From positions 98,688-162,687 of the forward strand of contig DBQK01000008.1 of assembly GCA_002305195.1 (NCBI GenBank): a stretch of DNA of 64,000 bases. The letters run 5' to 3'. The notes under the pieces were generated by a model. The model saw only the letters and a program-made list of their open reading frames with translations, was not told the DNA's origin and made no database searches. Below, piece after piece: positions 3,075 to 64,000 of this stretch. Positions within the stretch are counted from its first letter, which is position 1, and each line of letters begins with the position of its first letter. Both the position numbers and the translations under genes were made by a program. This stretch comes from Patescibacteria group bacterium UBA1396. GTDB taxonomy: Bacteria > Patescibacteriota > Microgenomatia > UBA1400 > UBA1396.

Positions 3075-4799
3075 TTAAAAAACCAGCCCATCTTCTTCGT
3101 CTACCTCTATAGATTCTGGCTTTTTAAGTACACTTTCAACATTTTCTGTAGAAAGTAATTTAATTTTCTCAGTGATTTCCTCGACCCATTCAGGAACAGG
3201 GAGACTCTCCTCAGAATATCTTTTCTTAAACTCAATAAAAAGATCACGCCCTTTTTTGTTAGTTTGAAAACCAATGTTTTCGTTTAATGTGTATTCAAAA
3301 CCCAAGTAATTCTCAGTCACTTTACCGTCAGGATAATCTTCACTTTCATCTCTGAATAATTCCATTATCACTTTATTTTTCTTGATATTATCTATTCCCT
3401 TACCTGATCCTTCTAGATGTTTGTCGCCATCAAAAATGACATAGCAAGGTATGCCAAATTCTGTGTACAAACGATAAAACCTATCAATTTCGTCTTTGTT
3501 TCCACAACGAACAATACTAATGCCTTCTTTCAAATAGTCAAAATTTACCGCTTCAAAAAGGAATGGCAAAAGCATTGACTCAGATTGCCCTTCAACAAGA
3601 ATAATTTTGTTTGCAAAAAAAGCCTCATTAGCTCTCTGAGAATCTCCAGTCTGTTCATAGGCAGTCTGGTGATAAAGCATAATCTCTTCATTACTTGAGT
3701 TAATACCAGTTCTATATAAAAGGTCTAGTCTGAAACTGTCAGGCTTAGCAAAATATAAATGAGTACCCTTCTCCTTATTTTTTCTTACTAAGAAAATTTC
3801 GTTAAACCTGGAAGTCGAGAGAAATTTCTCTGAGTGGGTTGTGTAGAAAATTTGCGTACCTTCTCTTACTAGCTCACCACCCTCGTTATATTTGTCTTCT
3901 GAAATTTCCTGCAAAACTCTATAAAAGTTATTCTGTGCTTGTGGATGAAGAAAAAGTTCTGGCTCATCTATAAATATTGGGCTATTATTGGATAAGTTTA
4001 ATTGAGAATAAGCTTGCAAGATTGCAACACTTATAGAAGCCTGAACCCCCATTCCTAAGTCTGAGGCTTGGAATTCTAAGTCCATATCTGACTCGTTTAC
4101 AATTAACTGCAGGGTTCTGTAAAAATTCCATGGATCGTATAGGCTTAAGTCGACCTTGAAATCCGTAATTGGTCTATTTAACTGTCTAGCACTTTCTTCC
4201 TGTAATATCTGGAGAAACCTCTGCATAATGTTTTGACCACTTTGATCAGTAACACTAAATAGAAGTCTATCTCTGATAACAGACAACCATTGAATTAGCC
4301 ATTCCGTCTTAGGTCTACTTTGCCCTTTATGTGTGTATTCTTCTTCAAGAAATTGCTTATTTACTTCATGTAGAATTCTCCCAATTAGTGACCATTTATT
4401 TGAAGGAAGATAATCTAAAATCTTTCTATCAGTTCCCAAGTAAGCACACATATATAAGTCTCTTGTCTCTTGATTGCAATAATCACCCCCGTTCATGTTC
4501 AATCCAGATTTCAACCTCCCAGCGTAATCATGCCATTCTTCTGCGAGTTCTAAGCAATTACCATCATCAAAATATAGTTGAATTTTTATTTTATTATTCT
4601 CATCACCCATGAAGTGATCATTTTTTGTTACAGAATTAAATGATGGCCCAGTTGGACCAAGAAGCCAATTTATCGCATCAAAAATGTTACTTTTGCCAGT
4701 ACTGTTTGCACCAATGAAAGCATTTAGTTTAGGACTTAAAGAGACATCCAGGTGTTTAATACTCTTGTAGTTGTCAATAACTATTCTATTTATCTTCAT
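3075..4799 (-). CDS. OLD-family ATP-dependent endonuclease (ABC-ATPase N-domain + TOPRIM C-domain; GajA/P2-Old-like, class-1 architecture)
   Basis: Walker A 'GANSTGKSN', Walker B 'IFIDEPELFLHP', H-loop 'YTTHS', C-terminal TOPRIM 'KIILVEGQSE...VIFDGDK'. Confidence 0.75.
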   Translation of the reverse strand: MKINRIVIDNYKSIKHLDVSLSPKLNAFIGANSTGKSNIFDAINWLLGPTGPSFNSVTKNDHFMGDENNKIKIQLYFDDGNCLELAEEWHDYAGRLKSGLNMNGGDYCNQETRDLYMCAYLGTDRKILDYLPSNKWSLIGRILHEVNKQFLEEEYTHKGQSRPKTEWLIQWLSVIRDRLLFSVTDQSGQNIMQRFLQILQEESARQLNRPITDFKVDLSLYDPWNFYRTLQLIVNESDMDLEFQASDLGMGVQASISVAILQAYSQLNLSNNSPIFIDEPELFLHPQAQNNFYRVLQEISEDKYNEGGELVREGTQIFYTTHSEKFLSTSRFNEIFLVRKNKEKGTHLYFAKPDSFRLDLLYRTGINSSNEEIMLYHQTAYEQTGDSQRANEAFFANKIILVEGQSESMLLPFLFEAVNFDYLKEGISIVRCGNKDEIDRFYRLYTEFGIPCYVIFDGDKHLEGSGKGIDNIKKNKVIMELFRDESEDYPDGKVTENYLGFEYTLNENIGFQTNKKGRDLFIEFKKRYSEESLPVPEWVEEITEKIKLLSTENVESVLKKPESIEVDEEDGLVF

Positions 4800-6577: not shown

Positions 6578-7051
6578 ATGTCTACAAGAAAACAAATAAA
6601 AGCTAATAAAATCAATGGATTAAAAGGTGGAGTAAAAACTAGTGATGGGAAAAAAAGAATTCGTTTTAACGCTGTTAAGCATGGCATCCTGGGAAAATTC
6701 ATTACTGAATATGATTCTGTTGATAGCAAAGAAATACTTGCTCTTTTTCAAGGAGAATTTTCACCACAAGGTATCATTGAGCACATACTTGTTGAGCAAT
6801 TAGCTTTACTTTATTTAAGAATGTGTAGAGCGGCTAGGGCAGAAGCCGAATTCATTGAGTCACAATTTCACAATGGCTTTATTAAGCTTGATTTCTCTGA
6901 TCACGAACCAAAAATCAGTATTGATGCGATGACAAAATGCTCTGAATTATATGCTCGTTATGAAACAAATTTAGAAAACAGATTTTTTAAAACTTTAGAA
7001 AAGCTTCAAACCCCTCAAGATGGGTTTGTTTCGCAGAAAGGACAAGTATGA
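6578..7051 (+). CDS. hypothetical protein, translationally coupled to serine recombinase gene
   Basis: AGGAG RBS 7 nt before ATG at 6578; stop overlaps recombinase start (ATGA). Confidence 0.4.
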   Translation: MSTRKQIKANKINGLKGGVKTSDGKKRIRFNAVKHGILGKFITEYDSVDSKEILALFQGEFSPQGIIEHILVEQLALLYLRMCRAARAEAEFIESQFHNGFIKLDFSDHEPKISIDAMTKCSELYARYETNLENRFFKTLEKLQTPQDGFVSQKGQV

Positions 7052-8631
7052 CAAACAAACAATATGTGAAAAGTTGCTTAATATATTGTCGAGTCTCCTC
7101 CAAAAGACAGGTAGAAGAAGGTAATGGTTTAGGCAGTCAGGAGAAAAGGTGCAGAAACTATGCTTTCTCCAAAGGCTATAAGGTTGAAAAAGTATTTGAA
7201 GAAAAAGGCGTGTCAGGTGCATTGTTCGATCGTCCAGCCATGAAAGAATTGATCTCTTTTTTGGATAAGAATGCTCACAAAGAATACGTAATTATTTTTG
7301 ATGACTTGAAAAGATTTGCAAGAGATTACTCCGTGCATTTGAAATTAAAAATGGAATTAGTTGAGGCCAGAGGAGCAACCCTTGAATGTCTCAATTTTAA
7401 TTTTGAGAATACACCAGAGGGAGAATTTGTAGAGGGCATCTTAGCTCTACAAGGTGAACTAGAGAGAAAACAAAATAGAAGGCAGGTTATTCAAAAGCAA
7501 AAGGCACGATTGGAAAGAGGTTTCTGGCCTTTTTGTCCTCCTCCTCAATTCAAACATATTAAATCAAAGCAACATGGAAAGATTTTAGTATCAAGAGAAC
7601 CAATGGCTTCAATTTCTAAGGAGGCGCTAGAACGGTATGCCAAGAACTTACTAAACACACAACATGAGGTGAAAGATTTTCTGAATGAAGAATACAAAAA
7701 ACATGGTTTAGATAGGAGAATTTCTATTCATGGGGTGCAAAAGCTTCTCTCTACTCCATTAAACGCAGGTTATGTTGAGTATAAACCGTGGGAAATTTCC
7801 TTATCTGAGGGGCAACACGAGGGAATTATTAGTATAGATATTCACCACGTTATTCAGGATAAGTTGGCAGGAAGATCAAAACCTAAGTTTAACAAAAGTT
7901 GTTCGACTGATTTTCCTCTCAGGAGATTCGTTACTTGTAGCAAGTGCGGTAGTAAATTACGTGCTAGTTGGAATACAGGCAATGGAGGTAAGTACCCTAA
8001 CTATTGGTGTCAAAATAAGGATTGTGAATATAGATATAAGGTAACCAAAGCGTGGGATATACATACAAAGTTTGAGGCTGTATTAAAACACTCCAAAGCC
8101 ACTAAAGGAGCTAGAAGCCTAGCGACTGCCATTTTCAACGATGTTTGGGAAACAGAAAAACAAAGAGAGCTAAAAAATATATCTAGTTTGAAAGATAGGA
8201 TGTTGGAAATTGATAAGGAGCTAGAAACGCTGGCAAAAAGGTCATCTCAGGCTTCCAGTGAAAAAGTTGTCAGTGTGTACGAACAATTAATAGAGAAGCT
8301 CTCTAATGAGAGAGATCATATTGGCTCGGGTGATGAAAAACCAAAATTAACTGAAAATAAATTTGGAACTTGCTTAAACCGTGTCTATGACACACTAGAA
8401 AATCCGCTTTTACTCTGGCACAGTGATAATTTAGAAGACCAAAGAACGGTTCTTTATATGTATTTTGAAAATGGATTAGACTTCGATTATAAAAAAGGTT
8501 TTGGAACCTACAAATTTAGCGAAGCCATCAATCTTTTACGGGATCCAGCCAACGCTGAATTCCCAAATGTGGAGATGTCGGGCAATGAACCCGAGTCCGA
8601 AAAAGATCATCAACTAGGACTACGCGTGTAG
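7048..8631 (+). CDS. large serine recombinase/integrase (resolvase N-domain + recombinase domain + zinc ribbon + coiled coil)
   Basis: Catalytic-serine motif 'CLIYCRVSSKRQ', Cys cluster 'CSKCGSK...YWCQNKDC'. Confidence 0.8.
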   Translation: MTNKQYVKSCLIYCRVSSKRQVEEGNGLGSQEKRCRNYAFSKGYKVEKVFEEKGVSGALFDRPAMKELISFLDKNAHKEYVIIFDDLKRFARDYSVHLKLKMELVEARGATLECLNFNFENTPEGEFVEGILALQGELERKQNRRQVIQKQKARLERGFWPFCPPPQFKHIKSKQHGKILVSREPMASISKEALERYAKNLLNTQHEVKDFLNEEYKKHGLDRRISIHGVQKLLSTPLNAGYVEYKPWEISLSEGQHEGIISIDIHHVIQDKLAGRSKPKFNKSCSTDFPLRRFVTCSKCGSKLRASWNTGNGGKYPNYWCQNKDCEYRYKVTKAWDIHTKFEAVLKHSKATKGARSLATAIFNDVWETEKQRELKNISSLKDRMLEIDKELETLAKRSSQASSEKVVSVYEQLIEKLSNERDHIGSGDEKPKLTENKFGTCLNRVYDTLENPLLLWHSDNLEDQRTVLYMYFENGLDFDYKKGFGTYKFSEAINLLRDPANAEFPNVEMSGNEPESEKDHQLGLRV

Positions 8632-9053
8632 TTTCGCTTTTAGCTTAAACAGGTGGTGGAAAACGGACCAACCATTCACCTGCGCTGACGAAAAAACTTA
8701 GTTTCAGCTGGTCGCCAAGCCAGACTAAAACGCACATAAGCTGGGTTTATGCCCCACCACCTGCGCTTATGGTACAAAGCGGTGGGACACCAGTGTTGCT
8801 AATTAAGCAACGGCTGGCACCACGTTGGAGCCGCCGAACACAAAGTTGGCGAGCTTCTTCATGGCGTTGTCAAGTTTGTTGACATTTATGATTTTCACTG
8901 ATTACGTCAGTGATTCGACGCGCCCTTGTTCACGAACATTTCCCGTCAAAACGATACATCCCCATTTGACAGAAATTGTTGTTTTATCGGTTAAACTCGA
9001 TTAGCAACTCGGTAATTATAGCAATTTCTAGGCAAAATCGCTACACTTAATCT
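8632..9053. other. anomalous GC-rich (~50-55%) non-coding segment with long-range complementary 10-mers and a hairpin; possible att site remnant, ncRNA or foreign DNA fragment
   Basis: caggtggtgg (8650-8659) vs ccaccacctg (~8755-8764); direct repeat 'cacctgcgct' x2; hairpin tcactga-ttacg-tcagtga; 19-codon GC-rich mini-ORF on minus strand; TTGACA at ~8977. Confidence 0.3.
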
Positions 9054-37503: not shown

Positions 37504-38904
37504 CTAGGCAGCTAATTCTGCCAACAAATCATGAATTTTAACTCTAGCTTGCTTGGTGGTATCACGCTGGCGGATAGTCACTGTATCGTCCTCAAGGGTT
37601 TGAAAATCAACGGTTACGCCATAAGGTGTGCCGATTTCGTCCTGACTTAGATAGCGTTTACCGATATTGCCTCGGTCATCCCAAGTGGTGGGCATCGCTG
37701 ACTGAACTAATTTAAACACAGATTCGGCTTTAGCGACTAGTTCAGGTCTATTGCGAAGCAAGGGAAAAACAGCCGCTTTATAAGGAGCTAGATGATATGG
37801 TAATTTCAAAACTAAGCGATCATTAGCCTCATCCTGCCATAGAAACTCCAGCAAAACCATTAAAAGTAGACGGTTTATACCCACAGCTGGCTCGATAACA
37901 TGGGGAATATATTTGCGACCATCACTTGAGTCGGTTACTCGCAGGTCCTGACCAGAATACTCCATATGTTGCTTAAGATCATAATCAGTGCGATAAGCCA
38001 ATCCCCAGAGTTCTTTAAACCCAAACGGGAAATTATACTCTAAATCAACGGTTCGTAAGCTATAGTGTGATCTTTCCTCATCTGTATGCTCTCGCCAGCG
38101 AAGATTATTCTTGCCGATGCCCAACTGGATAGTAACAAACTGCCACATTGCCTCCTGCCAATTATCAAAAAGTTCTTCCCAATTACTATTTTGTGGATCA
38201 AAAAAATATTCAATCTCGGCTTGTTCGAATTCCAAAGTTCGAAAAATAAAGTTTCCTAGTGTAATTTCATTGCGAAAACTCTTGCCTATTTGGCCGATTC
38301 CAAAAGGCAACTTAACTCGAGTAGAATCGAGAATATTTTTAAAACTTAAAAAGATCCCCTGGGCCGTTTCACCTCGCAAATAAGCCTTAGATTCTGACTC
38401 AGGCACAATCCCAATACTAGTTTCAAATAATAAGTTAAATTTTCTAACCGGGGTCCATTGAAACTCACCACAGGAGGGACAAGCAATTTGCTCTTTTTCA
38501 ATAATTTTTTGAAGCTCCTCGATGGGCAAACCCTCAACTAATTTTGGTTCTTGCTTTTGAGCGTAGTAGTTTTCGATCAAGTGATCGGCTCTGGTTCGAC
38601 GTTGGCAATTTTTGCAATCAACTAGAGGATCGCTAAAACTATTGATATGACCGGAGGCTTCCCAGGTTTTGGGGTGAACAATAATTGAACTATCTAGACC
38701 CAACATATCAATTCGATCGTGAATAAAGGTTTTCCACCAGAGATTTTTAATGTTGCGCTTTAACTCAACCCCTAAGGGACCATATTCATACGCATTAGCT
38801 AATCCCCCATAAATCTCTGAGGAGGGAAAAATAAAACCACGCCGCTTGCAAAGAGCCACCACCTGAGTCATTAAATCATTTTCGTTCATACACTTGGCTT
38901 CCAA
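37504..38904 (-). CDS. glyS: glycine--tRNA ligase (class II, alpha2 archaeal/eukaryote-like type)
   Basis: 'RRGFIFPSSEIYGGLANAYEYGPLGVELKRNI', class II motifs, C-terminal anticodon-binding domain. Confidence 0.85.
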   Translation of the reverse strand: MEAKCMNENDLMTQVVALCKRRGFIFPSSEIYGGLANAYEYGPLGVELKRNIKNLWWKTFIHDRIDMLGLDSSIIVHPKTWEASGHINSFSDPLVDCKNCQRRTRADHLIENYYAQKQEPKLVEGLPIEELQKIIEKEQIACPSCGEFQWTPVRKFNLLFETSIGIVPESESKAYLRGETAQGIFLSFKNILDSTRVKLPFGIGQIGKSFRNEITLGNFIFRTLEFEQAEIEYFFDPQNSNWEELFDNWQEAMWQFVTIQLGIGKNNLRWREHTDEERSHYSLRTVDLEYNFPFGFKELWGLAYRTDYDLKQHMEYSGQDLRVTDSSDGRKYIPHVIEPAVGINRLLLMVLLEFLWQDEANDRLVLKLPYHLAPYKAAVFPLLRNRPELVAKAESVFKLVQSAMPTTWDDRGNIGKRYLSQDEIGTPYGVTVDFQTLEDDTVTIRQRDTTKQARVKIHDLLAELAA

Positions 38905-61298: not shown

Positions 61299-62406
61299 AT
61301 TACCAGGTTTTTCCGGCTGGAGATTTAAAAACGATCAGCCAATCAATGGCTTAATAATGCTCATTGAATTCGAAAAAATCGACGGTATTTTGCAGTGGGA
61401 AAAAGAGCTAGATAAACGCAACTTAACAGCAATGGTCAAGGTTCAAAATAATATTTTGAAGGATTACCCTGAGGTTTTCAAACGACTGGCTAGTAAGGGC
61501 TACGAAATCGCTGGTGGTTATGATGAAGAACCGTTCTGGGATATGCCTTATGAAAAACAATATCAGTATCTTAAGGAAGCTAAAGACTTAGTTGAATCAA
61601 CAACTGGATTGCCGATGCGTGTGTTCGGTAGTCGATACTTTGCTTATGATGAAAACACTCTTAAAGCTGCCGATGACCTAGGTATCGAGTATATCCTGGC
61701 ACGCGGAACTCAAGACGTTGCAGCTGTCATTTATGATCCGGCAGAATATGATGTCAAGGTTATTTCGGTAACCAACGTTGAAAATGGCGAAATGGGTCGA
61801 GGTTCGCTGTGTGACTACAGTTTATGGGCGCGCGGCGCCGATGCTCAGGAGTTTGCCACCATCTTGGAGGAAAGCTTGGCAAAAAAACCAAAAAATATGA
61901 TTTTAGTTTCACACTCGTACTTGGGCGGAACGCGTCAAGAATGGTGGGAGGAATATCGAAAAGTTCTGAAGAATGACAAGGTGAGTTGGGTTGGGTTTGA
62001 CACCTGGCTTGAAAAACAAGAGTTGCTAACAATGCCCAATAGCGAAATTCCAATCAATCGCGAGGTTAAGTACGTTCAACCGAAGCCTGCCAAACCAATG
62101 GAGAATTACACTCCAGTGCCTAATCTTGAAAGTGCCGAAGTTATTATGTTTCATAATAATTTAGGTGAGATGTGCCTTGAAGCCATTGAGTTTTTTAAAA
62201 CTCATCAAATTGAATACAAAGAATATCTAAACACCGATTCAGAATTTAGGCAGATGCTAACACAATATCAACAAGAACATCCTACTAGCATGGGTGAATC
62301 GGAAAACTATCAGTACTTACCCATCATTTTTTATGAGGGAAAAGCATACTCAGGATTCAACGAACAAGTAGCTCAAAGCATCTTGTCAGATTGGGAAAGT
62401 AGGTAA
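61216..62406 (+). CDS. membrane-anchored hypothetical protein (ORF opens at 61123; likely start ATG 61216; overlaps upstream gene end)
   Basis: RBS 'aaaggacaaagct' before ATG 61216; N-terminal TM 'ILIIVLFFVMFVVGIAWL'. Confidence 0.4.
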   Translation: MKTANLKSILIIVLFFVMFVVGIAWLNKLPGFSGWRFKNDQPINGLIMLIEFEKIDGILQWEKELDKRNLTAMVKVQNNILKDYPEVFKRLASKGYEIAGGYDEEPFWDMPYEKQYQYLKEAKDLVESTTGLPMRVFGSRYFAYDENTLKAADDLGIEYILARGTQDVAAVIYDPAEYDVKVISVTNVENGEMGRGSLCDYSLWARGADAQEFATILEESLAKKPKNMILVSHSYLGGTRQEWWEEYRKVLKNDKVSWVGFDTWLEKQELLTMPNSEIPINREVKYVQPKPAKPMENYTPVPNLESAEVIMFHNNLGEMCLEAIEFFKTHQIEYKEYLNTDSEFRQMLTQYQQEHPTSMGESENYQYLPIIFYEGKAYSGFNEQVAQSILSDWESR

Positions 62407-62491
62407 AGGAACAAAAAATAGAAAAATAGAAAAATAATTACTGTAATCGGGTAAAACTACAATTACAACAGTTCACTAGATTTTGGATAGC

Positions 62492-62519
62492 TTGACAGCC
62501 CAAAAAAAAGAGATATGAT
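62492..62519 (+). promoter_or_regulatory. sigma70-like promoter (TTGACA-16 nt-TATGAT) driving the T-box-like leader
   Basis: ttgaca 62492-62497, tatgat 62514-62519. Confidence 0.4.
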
Positions 62520-62574
62520 ATCTCCTACTTAACAAGTGAATAAAAACGTTGACCTAAGGAATCAGTAGAGATTC

Positions 62575-62891
62575 ATGAGTGACAAGAGAGAGTTGGTGGT
62601 CGCTGAAAACCAACCGTATCATGCTGATCGAAATACCCTTGGAGAGTTGCAAAGCTGAAAATTATAGTAAGCCACGCCGGGAGCGCCCGTATACAGCGCT
62701 AGAGCATGTCACACCAGAAACAGAGTGCTTGAAAAATAAGATTTATCTTTTAGTTTTCAAGTCCCGTACATGCGGGATTTTTTAATGCCAAAGATAAATA
62801 AAGTGAGGTGGTACCGCCTTTAGCAATAAAGACCCTCACATATTCATCGGTCATAACCGGTGAATGTGTGAGGGTTTTTTTGTAAAAAATA
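62575..62891 (+). ncRNA. candidate T-box riboswitch leader (T-box sequence GGUGGUACCGCC at 62807-62818; mutually exclusive antiterminator/terminator)
   Basis: 'aaagtgaGGTGGTACCGCCttt' near-matches T-box consensus AGGGUGGNACCGCG; 5' flank 'gtgagg' pairs with 'cctcac' (62833-62838), which is also the 5' arm of terminator; AGAGAGAG at 62585-62592. Confidence 0.5.
62833..62891 (+). terminator. intrinsic terminator (18-bp near-perfect stem + U7)
   Basis: ccctcacatattcatcgg...ccggtgaatgtgtgaggg followed by ttttttt. Confidence 0.7.
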
Positions 62892-62902
62892 GAAAGGACT
62901 AT

Positions 62903-63874
62903 ATGTCAATACATAAAGATCGTCTCTTGCCTCCGTTTAGTCAGGAGGCTTTGGGTCTAAGCGAAAACAAGCGACAAGCAGAAATAACTTGGATTAGCTT
63001 GCATAATTGGTTGCATAGCATTTTGAGAGACAGAATTACTGTCTCGCCTGAGCTGGAAAAGCTTGGGTTTATTGGCGGTATTAACAGGACTAATACCGGA
63101 GCACTAACAACCGCTATCGGTCGAGCCCCAACTGAACAACCAATAACTCGTCACATCCAGCCAATTAAAGCTATTGCCAGAAGGCTTGTTTTAGAACAAC
63201 TTGAGCTAGCTCCTTCTACACCACTTACTTTTCTAAAAAACGAGCTTGAATTAGGTTCCGGAGTCCATCTGGTAAAAGAAACTATTGGTCCGGATGTTAA
63301 TAACCCAGGAGAATGGATGGAATCAATGCAGCTTCTCTTGGAAGCGGGCGTATCGCCAGAAAAAATGTTCTTCATTCCCACTTTTAGAGACCCTCTAGAT
63401 GTTGTGGCAAGTTGGAAAAGGATGTGGGGCTGGGAAATCAGTAATTTTCCTTTTGAAAGCTTTAACTTTAGTTTTCAAAAGGTCGAACAAATGGTTCAAG
63501 AAGCCAAGGAAAGAAATATTTTGGTCATACCATACATCCATGAGTTTTTGCGTGACTTTGGCTCGGCTAAAACACTAGCCAGAATCCTAAATATTGTTGG
63601 CTTGCCTTTTAATGAAAACATTATTAACTGGGGAGACGATGATGACCCCTACTGGCAAGGAAACATTGTTAAATACGACGTACCTCCTAACGCTTGGATT
63701 CAAGGTAGCTTAAGTCCAAAACATGGAGGCAGAGGTGGTTTGGAATGGAGACCAATTAAATCAGAGCACAGGCTCACATCGGCAGAGGAAATTATTGTAA
63801 AACAAAAAATTAAAACTGCACTCGATGTCTACAAAAGAATGGAGATTTTAGCCGGACAAATTCTTGCTAAATAA
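62903..63874 (+). CDS. hypothetical protein downstream of T-box-like leader (ORF opens at 62864; likely start ATG 62903 after AAGGA RBS)
   Basis: 324-aa ORF, no family recognised. Confidence 0.5.
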   Translation: MSIHKDRLLPPFSQEALGLSENKRQAEITWISLHNWLHSILRDRITVSPELEKLGFIGGINRTNTGALTTAIGRAPTEQPITRHIQPIKAIARRLVLEQLELAPSTPLTFLKNELELGSGVHLVKETIGPDVNNPGEWMESMQLLLEAGVSPEKMFFIPTFRDPLDVVASWKRMWGWEISNFPFESFNFSFQKVEQMVQEAKERNILVIPYIHEFLRDFGSAKTLARILNIVGLPFNENIINWGDDDDPYWQGNIVKYDVPPNAWIQGSLSPKHGGRGGLEWRPIKSEHRLTSAEEIIVKQKIKTALDVYKRMEILAGQILAK

Positions 63875-64000
63875 ATTACTATGCAAAATTTTCAAGCTAC
63901 ATACAGTTCAAAAATCGGCTCAGCTGCTTTCTCAATAAAAAAGGCAGTCGTGGCTGGATCAAAACTAAATTGCAGCCTCACCTACACCGTGGGTGAGGCT

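What the first reader, a model, noticed from the sequence alone, without database searches (positions are those of the whole stretch)
62492..62891. T-box-like riboswitch leader controlling a gene of unknown function
The 3' part of the leader has 'AAAGUGAGGUGGUACCGCCUUU', close to the T-box consensus (AAUUAGGGUGGNACCGCG). The UGGU bulge could pair with tRNA 3'-ACCA. The adjacent 'GUGAGG' can pair with 'CCUCAC', which is also the 5' arm of a strong terminator (18-bp stem + U7, 62833-62891). That is exactly the antiterminator/terminator competition of T-box RNAs. An AGAGAGAG element lies in the 5' portion (62585-62592), and a small hairpin (62761-62778) precedes the T-box sequence like Stem III. 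A TTGACA-16-TATGAT promoter sits at 62492-62519. The downstream gene (62903-63874) has no recognisable family, so a tRNA-sensing switch here would point to an unannotated amino-acid-related function.
Basis: seen in the sequence. Interest (0 to 1): 0.65.

Follow-up and report, generated by a model that had tools for sequence, protein, structure and literature searches.

The report
Tyrosine T-box leader in a CPR bacterium
The flagged leader is a genuine tRNA-sensing T-box switch, specific for tyrosine tRNA, in a candidate-phyla-radiation (CPR) bacterium; it scores below the standard annotation cut-off and controls two uncharacterised enzymes that comparative evidence ties to tyrosine and tRNA-Tyr.

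Summary
Window 62540-62840 matches Rfam T-box RF00230 over the whole model (78.9 bits, E 2e-15), but below the curated cut-off of 93, so the default scan misses it. All canonical parts are present: promoter, K-turn, specifier loop, AG bulge and distal loop, Stem II, IIA/B pseudoknot, Stem III, UGGUACC bulge, and competing antiterminator and terminator.

Eleven further distinct leaders upstream of orthologues share this architecture with strong covariation. All score below the cut-off.

The specifier is UAC (Tyr). It is the only triplet invariant in all 12 leaders. In relatives the gene sits with tyrS, D-aminoacyl-tRNA deacylase and tRNA-Tyr genes, or behind Tyr-rich leader-peptide attenuators (YYYY).

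The controlled operon is X (62903-63874, sulfotransferase fold, weakly closest to tyrosylprotein sulfotransferases) plus Y (from 63881, DUF3604 metallohydrolase). The host is a Microgenomates-like CPR bacterium.

Unusual features:
- An extra conserved hairpin in the linker.
- A terminator-like hairpin plus U6 nested inside Stem III, in 11 of 12 leaders.
- A pyrimidine after the codon.

Verdict: a new variant of a known kind. What X and Y do is unknown.

The parts
62492..62519 (+). Sigma-70-type promoter: TTGACA (62492-62497), 16-nt spacer, TATGAT (62514-62519).
   Evidence: 11 of 12 consensus matches. TTGACA-N16/17-TAnAnT boxes sit at the same distance upstream of Stem I in the related leaders (read).
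62545..62648 (+). Stem I. K-turn/GA motif (GUUGA 62548-62552 with AGA 62643-62645; C-stem AAC/GUU). Lower stem 62553-62559 / 62637-62642. Specifier loop (5' AAUCAGUAGA 62560-62569; 3' GAAAUAC 62630-62636). AG bulge AAGAGAGAG 62584-62592. Distal helix and loop 62593-62613.
   Evidence: Rfam alignment. RNAalifold on 8 full-length leaders: 15 of 18 pairs show compensatory changes. Coordinates.
62634..62636 (+). Specifier codon UAC (Tyr), followed by C62637.
   Evidence: UAC is the only triplet invariant in the specifier loops of all 12 leaders; the base before it varies (A/U/G) and so does the base after it (C/A/G). It pairs with the GUA anticodon of the tRNA-Tyr genes adjacent to X in L003, L017, L018 and L020.
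62649..62677 (+). Stem II with S-turn-type GAA (62657-62659) and AGUA (62666-62669). The lower part is poorly paired in the window copy.
   Evidence: Rfam alignment (three non-canonical pairs flagged). Better-paired homologous Stem II in L007, L011, L016 and L019.
62678..62700 (+). Stem IIA/B pseudoknot: IIA is CGGG/CCCG; the loop AGCG pairs with CGCU at 62697-62700.
   Evidence: IIA 97.7% paired. IIB has double compensatory changes: C-G to U-A and G-C to U-A (one sequence each; from my own reading of the alignment, both fall in L016). Absent only in L020.
62702..62730 (+). Extra linker hairpin not in the Rfam model: GAGCAU / GUGCUU closing a conserved purine-rich interior (GUCACACCAGAAACAGA).
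   Evidence: It is an insertion relative to RF00230. It is present in all 12 leaders, including L020, which lacks Stem II and IIA/B. Among the 11 aligned leaders, 4 of 6 pairs have changes on both sides and 93.9% of cells are paired.
62741..62799 (+). Extended Stem III. Outer helix AUUUAUCUUU / AAAGAUAAAU (62741-62750 / 62790-62799). It encloses a GC hairpin UCCCG-UACAUG-CGGGA (62762-62777) followed directly by U6 (62778-62783), which looks like an intrinsic terminator or pause signal.
   Evidence: Outer helix: 9 of 10 pairs have changes on both sides. An inner hairpin (dG -7 to -11 kcal/mol) followed by U5-U8 is present in 11 of 12 leaders. AA immediately 3' of Stem III is invariant.
62803..62839 (+). 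Antiterminator (T-box discriminator core): A1 GUGAGG/CCUCAC; 7-nt bulge UGGUACC (62809-62815); A2 GCCUUU/AAAGAC.
   Evidence: Composite alignment of 12 leaders: 83% of cells paired versus 37-58% with slid partners, and 8 of 13 pairs changed on both sides. UGGU matches the discriminator A73 of the neighbouring tRNA-Tyr genes.
62831..62881 (+). Intrinsic terminator. The stem 62831-62876 has a 5' arm that contains the A1 and A2 3' strands; U7 follows at 62875-62881.
   Evidence: dG -37.7. Equivalent terminators of dG -30 to -42 occur in all 12 leaders. 96% of cells are paired and 15 of 19 pairs are changed on both sides (the register was fitted per sequence).
62893..63874 (+). RBS AAAGGA (62893-62898) and gene X (ATG 62903, stop 63872-63874; 323 aa). 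X has a sulfotransferase-like fold and belongs to a rare family of unknown function.
   Evidence: No Pfam or NCBIfam family. About 31 clusters among 5.8 billion proteins. AlphaFold model pLDDT 88.5. Top Foldseek hits are TPST2, tick TPST and TPST1 (E 2.4e-4, TM 0.37-0.42).
63881..64000 (+). Start of gene Y (DUF3604 / PHP-like metallohydrolase), 6 nt after the X stop codon. It runs off the end of the window.
   Evidence: The 98%-identical locus L004 continues the ORF for at least 583 aa; Pfam DUF3604 scores 50.5 bits against a cut-off of 20.4. The X-Y pair is also conserved in L009, L010, L015, L016 and L020.

Best explanation
The leader is a transcriptional T-box riboswitch specific for tRNA-Tyr.

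Proposed mechanism:
1. Transcription starts just downstream of the promoter at 62492-62519.
2. Stem I presents the codon UAC (62634-62636) to the GUA anticodon of tRNA-Tyr. Its AG bulge and distal loop form the platform for the tRNA elbow.
3. If the bound tRNA is uncharged, its 3' ACCA pairs with UGGU in the bulge (62809-62812). This stabilises the antiterminator (62803-62839).
4. RNA polymerase then reads through into a two-gene operon: X (a sulfotransferase-fold protein) and Y (a DUF3604 metallohydrolase).
5. If the tRNA is charged, the strands CCUCAC and AAAGAC are captured by the much more stable terminator (62831-62881) and transcription stops.

Shown here: the anatomy, its statistical significance, its conservation and covariation, and the tyrosine link.

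Inferred: the actual tRNA response, and the role of the nested hairpin plus U6 inside Stem III. I interpret that element as a programmed pause, or partial termination checkpoint, that gives tRNA time to dock before the discriminator is transcribed.

X and Y are inferred to serve tyrosine supply or tRNA-Tyr handling. Their chemistry is unknown.
For: T-box identity:
- Full-length RF00230 match, E 2.1e-15 in the whole window (alignment).
- All 12 distinct homologous leaders hit RF00230 at 50-91 bits.
- Covariation: Stem I has 15 of 18 pairs compensated. For IIA/B, the linker hairpin and Stem III together, 84.8% of cells pair versus 32-50% with slid partners, and 0 of 500 shuffles reach the observed value. 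Antiterminator and terminator are supported.

Tyrosine specificity:
- UAC is invariant in the specifier loops, while the flanking bases vary.
- tyrS (TIGR00234, above its cut-off) lies in the same gene string in L009, L014 and L015. L016 carries split tRNA-synt_1b / SYY_C-terminal ORFs.
- A D-aminoacyl-tRNA deacylase and an amino-acid racemase lie in L016.
- tRNA-Tyr(GUA) genes lie between the T-box terminator and X in L003 and L017, directly upstream of X in L018, and upstream of the promoter in L020.
- Relatives carry Tyr-rich leader peptides with attenuator folds. In L009 and L010 these replace the T-box (SYYYYL). In L011, L012 and L007 they follow it in tandem (YYY, YYF).
- The discriminator base A of these tRNAs matches UGGU.

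Pause precedent: transcription of the B. subtilis glyQS leader pauses at position 138 in the Stem III loop (PMC5570125; PMC13001445).
Against: - The score is below Rfam's gathering threshold (78.9 versus 93 bits).
- The base after the codon is C in the window, where canonical T-boxes have a conserved purine.
- Counted from the S-turn GAA, the canonical register would read AUA rather than UAC.
- Stem II is poorly paired in the window copy.
- There is no experimental evidence of tRNA binding.
- The host's own tRNA-Tyr and tyrS are not in the window.
- If the hairpin plus U6 inside Stem III terminated efficiently, it would make the downstream switch pointless, so its role is uncertain.
Confidence: 0.88

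Rival explanations
1. It is a T-box, but for another amino acid. In the register counted straight after the S-turn GAA the specifier is AUA (Ile); shifted one base the other way it is AAU (Asn).
For: In canonical T-boxes such as O. iheyensis glyQ the codon follows GAA directly (my recollection of the published Stem I sequence, not tested here). In the window the 3' side of the loop reads GAA-AUA-C. AAU would be followed by a purine (A).
Against: In the same register the relatives would read UUA (Leu), GUA (Val) or AUA, which is inconsistent for orthologous leaders. UAC is invariant in all 12. Counting from the 3' end of the loop gives UAC plus a purine in L003, L013, L015, L016 and L020. All genomic context is tyrosine: tyrS, tRNA-Tyr genes and Tyr leader peptides. 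No Ile or Asn gene is linked.
Confidence: 0.05
2. It is a decayed or non-functional T-box remnant. Under this reading the downstream hairpin is simply a constitutive attenuator, or the terminator of the upstream deacetylase-like gene.
For: The score is below the Rfam cut-off. Stem II is weak in the window copy. A terminator-like hairpin lies inside Stem III.
Against: A dedicated promoter precedes Stem I. Twelve leaders whose X proteins are only 44-60% identical keep every helix through compensatory changes. The T-box bulge UGGUA and the codon are invariant. Relics do not covary.
Confidence: 0.04
3. Regulation is mainly translational, by sequestration of the ribosome-binding site as in actinobacterial ileS T-boxes, rather than transcriptional.
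For: Relatives L007, L011, L016 and L015 have ultrashort or truncated Stem I. Published work associates that trait with translational T-boxes (PMC7583486).
Against: All 12 leaders end in a long GC-rich hairpin followed by a run of at least four to five U (interrupted, UUAUUU, in L015), with dG -30 to -42. The window RBS (62893-62898) lies 12 nt beyond the U-tract and is not part of any alternative helix.
Confidence: 0.03

Closest known systems
Bacillus subtilis tyrS T-box leader (founding member of RF00230; UAC specifier)
   Same: Same modular order: K-turn, specifier loop with S-turn, AG bulge and distal loop, Stem II, IIA/B pseudoknot, Stem III, UGGNACC bulge, and competing antiterminator and terminator. 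Same codon (UAC) and the same UGGU-A73 logic.
   Different: It occurs in a CPR/Patescibacteria genome. It scores below the Rfam cut-off. It has an extra conserved linker hairpin (62702-62730). Stem III is extended and encloses a terminator-like hairpin plus U6. A pyrimidine follows the codon, and one extra base lies between GAA and the codon. In the window it controls a sulfotransferase-fold gene and a DUF3604 gene, not tyrS.
Actinobacterial ileS T-boxes with ultrashort or intermediate Stem I (Sherwood et al. 2015, as summarised in PMC7583486)
   Same: Related leaders L007/L002, L011 and L016/L008 reduce Stem I to a K-turn plus a 4-bp hairpin, with the codon in a 7-nt terminal loop (AAAUACC, AGAUACG), and they keep Stem II and IIA/B. 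L015 has an intermediate Stem I.
   Different: The CPR leaders end in strong intrinsic terminators, so they are transcriptional. The review states that the elbow-binding platform is essential in transcriptional T-boxes. The window copy itself has a full-length Stem I.
glyQS-type T-boxes lacking Stem II and IIA/B, and the glyQS pause at position 138 in the Stem III loop (PMC5570125, PMC13001445)
   Same: Leader L020 lacks Stem II and IIA/B, like glyQS. The idea that Stem III acts as a pause site matches the hairpin plus U-run nested in Stem III here.
   Different: L020 is a Tyr leader, not a Gly leader, and it keeps the extra linker hairpin. The pause element here is a full terminator-like signal conserved in 11 of 12 leaders, not merely a loop position.
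Leader-peptide transcription attenuators (trp, phe, his operons of Proteobacteria)
   Same: Relatives L009, L010, L011, L012 and L007 have a 13-23-codon ORF with 2-4 consecutive Tyr codons (YYF in L007). The ORF overlaps the first arm of alternative 1:2 / 2:3 / 3:4 hairpins and is followed by a terminator.
   Different: The window has none. In L007, L011 and L012 the attenuator is placed in tandem after a T-box that senses the same amino acid. I found no description of that combination in the searched literature.
Tyrosylprotein sulfotransferases (human TPST2, PDB 3ap3) and other PAPS-dependent sulfotransferases, as relatives of protein X
   Same: Best structural matches to the X model. X has invariant R62-T-N-T-G66 and R162...S170 motifs, which resemble the 5'-PSB and 3'-PB PAPS-binding motifs. 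That comparison rests on my own knowledge and was not tested.
   Different: The matches are weak (E 2.4e-4, TM about 0.4; 12-17% identity). Pfam Sulfotransfer_3 reaches only E 0.12. There is no PDB hit by sequence. Substrate and cofactor are unknown.

Membership tests
T-box leader (Rfam RF00230) | Significant full-length match to the family covariance model | tested here: met
   78.9 bits, E 2.1e-15 for the whole window, model positions 1-219 of 219. The score is below the curated gathering score of 93, so a default scan is silent. That score is an annotation threshold, not a biological feature.
T-box leader (Rfam RF00230) | Stem I with a K-turn/GA motif and a specifier loop carrying an S-turn (AGUA/GAA) and a codon | tested here: met
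   GUUGA...AGA K-turn; AGUA at 62564-62567 and GAA at 62630-62632; UAC at 62634-62636. Stem I helices covary.
T-box leader (Rfam RF00230) | Conserved purine immediately 3' of the specifier codon | tested here: not met
   The window has C62637. Seven of 12 leaders have C, three have A and two have G. This is a deviation in a conserved position, not in the architecture.
T-box leader (Rfam RF00230) | Distal AG bulge and distal loop (the tRNA elbow platform) | tested here: met
   AAGAGAGAG at 62584-62592 and GGUCGCUGAAA at 62598-62608 align to the model's AGAGA and GGUUGGUGAAA. Conserved in the 8 full-length leaders.
T-box leader (Rfam RF00230) | Stem II and the Stem IIA/B pseudoknot | tested here: met
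   IIA 97.7% paired. IIB has two compensated pairs. Stem II in the window has three non-canonical pairs.
T-box leader (Rfam RF00230) | Stem III flanked by purines (RRRxG-Stem III-AA; PMC7583486) | tested here: met
   Of the outer helix's 10 pairs, 9 show changes on both sides. ...UAAG precedes Stem III and an invariant AA follows it. Stem III is atypically long, with a nested hairpin plus U-run.
T-box leader (Rfam RF00230) | T-box sequence with the 7-nt bulge UGGNACC between helices A1 and A2 | tested here: met
   GUGAGG-UGGUACC-GCCUUU at 62803-62821. GGUGGUA is invariant in 12 leaders.
T-box leader (Rfam RF00230) | Mutually exclusive antiterminator and intrinsic terminator | tested here: met
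   The A1 and A2 3' strands (62828-62839) lie in the 5' arm of the terminator; dG -9.3 versus -37.7. Conserved with covariation.
T-box leader (Rfam RF00230) | Codon matches the anticodon, and UGGN matches the discriminator base, of one tRNA | tested here: met
   UAC pairs with GUA, and UGGU pairs with A73-CCA, of the tRNA-Tyr genes next to X in L003 and L017. The window's own tRNA-Tyr is not available.
T-box leader (Rfam RF00230) | Readthrough induced by uncharged cognate tRNA | not testable with these tools
   This needs in vitro transcription or reporter assays.
Sulfotransferase superfamily (protein X) | Sequence-family membership and a PAPS-binding fold | tested here: inconclusive
   Pfam Sulfotransfer_3 E 0.12, 13.1 bits against a cut-off of 27. 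Foldseek top hits are sulfotransferases (TPST2 E 2.4e-4, TM 0.37-0.42). Remote homologues also hit Sulfotransfer_3 only weakly. No sequence hit in the PDB.
DUF3604 (protein Y) | Pfam PF12228 above its gathering score | tested here: met
   The L004 copy (98% identical locus) scores 50.5 bits against a cut-off of 20.4. Orthologues score 38-52 bits. There is also a weak CehA/McbA metallohydrolase domain match.
Leader-peptide attenuator | A short ORF with a run of regulatory codons overlapping alternative hairpins upstream of a terminator | tested here: not met
   Absent from the window: X starts 22 nt after the T-box terminator's U-tract. Present in relatives L007, L009, L010, L011 and L012.

The most novel reading that the evidence does not exclude
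X and Y form a previously unrecognised tyrosine / tRNA-Tyr-linked pathway that is confined to Microgenomates-type CPR bacteria.

In its boldest form, the sulfotransferase-fold protein X acts directly on tRNA-Tyr or Tyr-tRNA, with its PAP(S)-type pocket holding the 3'-terminal adenosine. This would explain why tRNA-Tyr genes are inserted between the T-box and X in three lineages, and why tyrS and D-aminoacyl-tRNA deacylase share the operon.

A second novel element is the terminator-like hairpin nested in Stem III. It could be an obligatory kinetic checkpoint that lets transcriptional T-boxes work even with an ultrashort Stem I.
Probability: 0.12. Interest if true: 0.85.

Novelty: new variant of a known kind. 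Interest (0 to 1): 0.62.

Why it matters
1. It shows a whole clade of T-box leaders in CPR/Patescibacteria that the standard Rfam threshold misses: 12 of 12 score below the cut-off. I found no paper in the searched library that links T-boxes with this radiation. tRNA-sensing regulation in these reduced genomes may therefore be under-counted.

2. The switch acts as a functional label. X (about 31 clusters among 5.8 billion proteins) and Y (DUF3604) have no known role. Two independent tyrosine-sensing devices, a T-box and a Tyr leader peptide, together with tyrS, DTD and tRNA-Tyr neighbours, say that they belong to tyrosine or tRNA-Tyr metabolism. This makes them directly testable.

3. The clade contains natural transcriptional T-boxes with an ultrashort Stem I, a Tyr T-box without Stem II, T-box-plus-attenuator tandems, and a conserved pause- or terminator-like module inside Stem III. 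These are natural experiments on how much of the T-box is needed and on the role of pausing.

Tried and rejected
- The Rfam gathering-threshold scans of the window and of 16 loci returned no T-box. Only evalue mode shows them.
- PDB sequence searches gave nothing useful for Y or for the X profile.
- The only paper that mentions DUF3604 is uninformative.
- RNAalifold proposed a long-range helix between the IIA region and the T-box sequence (columns 48-57 with 189-198). I rejected it because all of those columns are invariant, so there is no covariation, and it conflicts with IIA/B and the antiterminator.
- The MAFFT alignment of the terminator region (A4) put L016 and L020 in a different register. 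I replaced it with a fixed-width composite (A5). This fits the register to each sequence's own fold and so favours the terminator count.
- I looked for an upstream anti-terminator for the nested Stem III hairpin. In the window, IIA (CGGGA) is complementary to its 5' arm (UCCCG), but this is not conserved in L007 or L012, so I treat it as coincidence.
- An automatic search for the A1 3' strand matched the U-tract in five leaders. I corrected it by hand.
- The 68-aa ORF inside the leader (62579-62785) and the ATG at 62864 are not conserved and were disregarded.
- The MAG labels 'Pseudomonadales' and 'Gammaproteobacteria' for L001 and L003 conflict with the marker-gene evidence. I regard them as likely mis-binning, but did not test this.
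Full report
OBSERVATION. I read 62200-64000 and verified every coordinate by script.
- Promoter: TTGACA (62492-62497), 16-nt spacer, TATGAT (62514-62519). It matches 11 of 12 consensus positions.
- AGAGAGAG lies at 62585-62592.
- The small hairpin UCCCG-UACAUG-CGGGA lies at 62762-62777.
- The T-box sequence AAAGUGAGGUGGUACCGCCUUU lies at 62800-62821.
- CCUCAC lies at 62834-62839.
- The terminator spans 62831-62876 and is followed by U7 (62875-62881). It has at least 20 bp and dG -37.7 kcal/mol.

The default Rfam scan at gathering thresholds reports only a tmRNA and a tRNA in the window. In evalue mode RF00230 matches 62540-62840 over the whole model: positions 1-219, 78.9 bits against a curated cut-off of 93, E 1.9e-17 for the region and 2.1e-15 for the whole window. 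No other T-box appears in the 64 kb. The score is lost to two long insertions, one in the linker and one inside Stem III, and to a weak Stem II.

ANATOMY.
- K-turn: GUUGA at 62548-62552 with AGA at 62643-62645.
- Lower stem: 62553-62559 / 62637-62642.
- Specifier loop: AGUA on the 5' side and GAAAUAC on the 3' side.
- AG bulge at 62584-62592; distal helix and loop at 62593-62613.
- Stem II: 62649-62677, with GAA and AGUA.
- IIA/B pseudoknot: 62678-62700 (CGGG-AGCG-CCCG ... CGCU).
- Extra hairpin: 62702-62730.
- Stem III: outer helix 62741-62750 / 62790-62799, enclosing the GC hairpin 62762-62777 and U6 at 62778-62783.
- An AA spacer follows, then A1 GUGAGG, the bulge UGGUACC, A2 GCCUUU/AAAGAC, and the A1 3' strand CCUCAC.
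- The terminator's 5' arm contains the 3' strands of both A2 and A1.
- The RBS AAAGGA (62893-62898) and the ATG at 62903 lie beyond the U-tract.

RELATED LEADERS. Protein X (62903-63874) has only 28 relatives by single-sequence search and 31 by profile search, among 5.8 billion proteins. One is from Candidatus Roizmanbacteria.

I fetched the DNA around relatives. Eleven further distinct leaders lie upstream of X orthologues whose proteins are 44-60% identical to the window's: L019, L012, L007 (same as L002), L011, L014, L017, L013, L003, L015, L016 (same as L008) and L020. All hit RF00230 full length at 50-91 bits (E 2e-18 to 6e-8), and every one is below the cut-off. Promoter boxes of the form TTGACA-N16/17-TAnAnT precede Stem I in each.

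COVARIATION.
- Stem I, 8 full-length leaders: 15 of 18 predicted pairs show compensatory changes.
- I named a structure covering IIA, the IIB pseudoknot, the linker hairpin, and outer and inner Stem III, and counted it on 11 leaders. 84.8% of cells pair, against 32-50% when partners are slid by 1-3 columns. 20 of 29 pairs change on both sides. 0 of 500 shuffles reach the observed pairing or covariation score.
- Antiterminator: 83% paired against 37-58% slid.
- Terminator: 96% against 33-60%. The register of this composite was fitted to each sequence's own fold, which favours it.
- All 12 terminators have dG between -30 and -42 kcal/mol and overlap the A1 3' strand.

WHICH AMINO ACID. The 3' sides of the specifier loops read as follows:
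- GAAAUACC: window, L019, L012, L007, L011
- GAAUUACC: L014, L017
- GAAUUACA: L013, L003, L015
- AGAUACG: L016
- GAAGUACG: L020

UAC is the only invariant triplet. The register directly after GAA would give AUA, UUA or GUA, which are different amino acids in orthologous leaders.

The genomic context agrees with tyrosine.
- tyrS (TIGR00234, above its cut-off) follows X or X-Y in L014 and L015, and precedes X in L009.
- L016 has X, Y, an amino-acid racemase, a D-aminoacyl-tRNA deacylase, and then split TyrRS ORFs.
- tRNA-Tyr(GUA) genes lie between the T-box terminator and X in L003 and L017, directly upstream of X in L018 (truncated by the contig end), and just upstream of the T-box promoter in L020.
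- Their discriminator base is A, matching UGGU.
- L009 and L010 have no T-box. Instead they have short ORFs, MSKFVLSYASYYYYLTKKVEVGL and MKKFVLSCASYYYYLTEKVEVGF, followed by a terminator.
- L011 (…VSVYYYELLYCGG), L012 (…VSFYYYELLYRGG) and L007 (…RNYYFP) carry such ORFs in tandem after the T-box terminator.
- The folds show the Tyr codons in the first arm of a hairpin. The second arm of that hairpin can alternatively pair with the 5' arm of the terminator. This is the classical leader-peptide attenuator.

Two unrelated tyrosine sensors on the same gene family make the Tyr assignment secure.

WHAT IS CONTROLLED. X has no sequence family: Sulfotransfer_3 reaches only E 0.12. Its AlphaFold model (pLDDT 88.5) matches sulfotransferases. 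Human TPST2, tick TPST and TPST1 rank first, but weakly (E 2.4e-4, TM 0.37-0.42). An exhaustive profile search finds 165 representatives, only 11 of them below 1e-30. The distant ones again touch Sulfotransfer_3 only weakly.

Six bases after the X stop codon, at 63881, gene Y begins and runs off the window. The 98%-identical locus L004 shows that it is a DUF3604 protein, with a weak CehA/McbA metallohydrolase signature in orthologues. The X-Y pair recurs in L009, L010, L015, L016 and L020.

HOST. The nearest named relatives of the window's UvrB are Woesebacteria, Cerribacteria, Pacebacteria and 'Patescibacteria group' (58-65% identity). The window is therefore from a Microgenomates-like CPR bacterium.

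UNUSUAL FEATURES.
(a) The linker hairpin (62702-62730) is present in all 12 leaders, including L020, which has lost Stem II and IIA/B. It covaries in the 11 leaders aligned (L020 was not in that alignment).
(b) In 11 of 12 leaders Stem III is an outer helix of 7-13 bp enclosing a GC hairpin (dG -7 to -11 kcal/mol) followed at once by U5-U8. That is the signature of an intrinsic terminator or hairpin pause. The outer 3' strand is transcribed only afterwards. Published work places a pause at position 138 in the Stem III loop of B. subtilis glyQS and proposes that it buys time for tRNA docking (PMC5570125, PMC13001445). I take the nested element to be a strengthened version of that pause. This is inference.
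(c) The post-codon base is a pyrimidine in 7 of 12 leaders.
(d) Relatives L007, L011 and L016 have an ultrashort Stem I (GGAG-AAAUACC-CUCC) and L015 an intermediate one, yet all end in strong terminators. The review PMC7583486 states that the elbow platform is essential in transcriptional T-boxes and that short Stem I forms are typical of translational ones.

COMPARISON AND NOVELTY. By every structural criterion except the post-codon purine, the element is a T-box, and the mechanism is the known one. What is new:
- the host radiation; no paper in the searched library combines T-box with CPR or Patescibacteria;
- the invisibility of the clade to the standard threshold;
- the two added modules;
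- the regulon.

What X and Y do chemically remains unknown. My best guess is tyrosine supply or salvage, or handling of tRNA-Tyr. The evidence for that is contextual only.

Noticed in passing
L003 3250-3336; L017 3995-4080; L018 1-74: A tRNA-Tyr(GUA) gene sits between the Tyr T-box terminator and gene X, 2-35 nt from the X start. A T-box therefore appears to control transcription of its own ligand's gene. I know of no precedent for this.
   Followed up: partly
L007 4866-4907; L011 3865-3936; L012 3925-3996; L009 2213-2284; L010 3845-3916: Tyr-rich leader peptides (YYYY, YYY, YYF) with attenuator-type alternative hairpins lie upstream of X. In L007, L011 and L012 they stand in tandem behind a Tyr T-box. 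In L009 and L010 they replace it.
   Followed up: partly
L007 4596-4625; L011 3587-3616; L016 3718-3747; L015 1103-1160: These are transcriptional T-boxes with an ultrashort Stem I (codon in a 7-nt terminal loop) or an intermediate Stem I, lacking the tRNA-elbow platform. This goes against the published generalisation that the platform is essential in transcriptional T-boxes.
   Followed up: partly
L020 283-565 and 53-124: A Tyr T-box that lacks Stem II and the IIA/B pseudoknot, an architecture known from glycine T-boxes, but keeps the extra linker hairpin. A 72-nt tRNA-Tyr(GUA) without the long variable arm lies just upstream.
   Followed up: no
window 3075-4799 (-), 7048-8631 (+), 8567-8963 (-): An OLD-family ATPase/TOPRIM nuclease gene and a 527-aa serine-recombinase gene lie next to the tmRNA gene, and the recombinase ORF overlaps its 3' end. 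This may be a mobile element integrated at ssrA. The tmRNA tag peptide is VNKLDNAMKKLANFVFGGSNVVPAVA.
   Followed up: no
window 37504-38904 (-): A glycine-tRNA ligase gene (dimeric type) with no detectable T-box upstream. The Tyr leader is the only T-box in the 64 kb.
   Followed up: partly
window 63973-63997: A perfect 9-bp inverted repeat, GCCUCACCUACACCGUGGGUGAGGC, lies inside the 5' end of the Y coding region. Its significance is unknown.
   Followed up: no
L001 and L003 (record titles): The MAGs carrying X orthologues are labelled 'uncultured Pseudomonadales' and 'Gammaproteobacteria', although all marker evidence points to CPR. This is probably mis-binning or mis-classification.
   Followed up: no
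L009 511-2166 and 7191-8618; L010 1292-3448: Group II PLP-dependent decarboxylase genes, whose best sub-threshold matches include tyrosine decarboxylases, flank the tyrS-X-Y string in L009. Two M20 peptidase/amidohydrolase genes precede X in L010. These may be hints to the substrate of X and Y.
   Followed up: no
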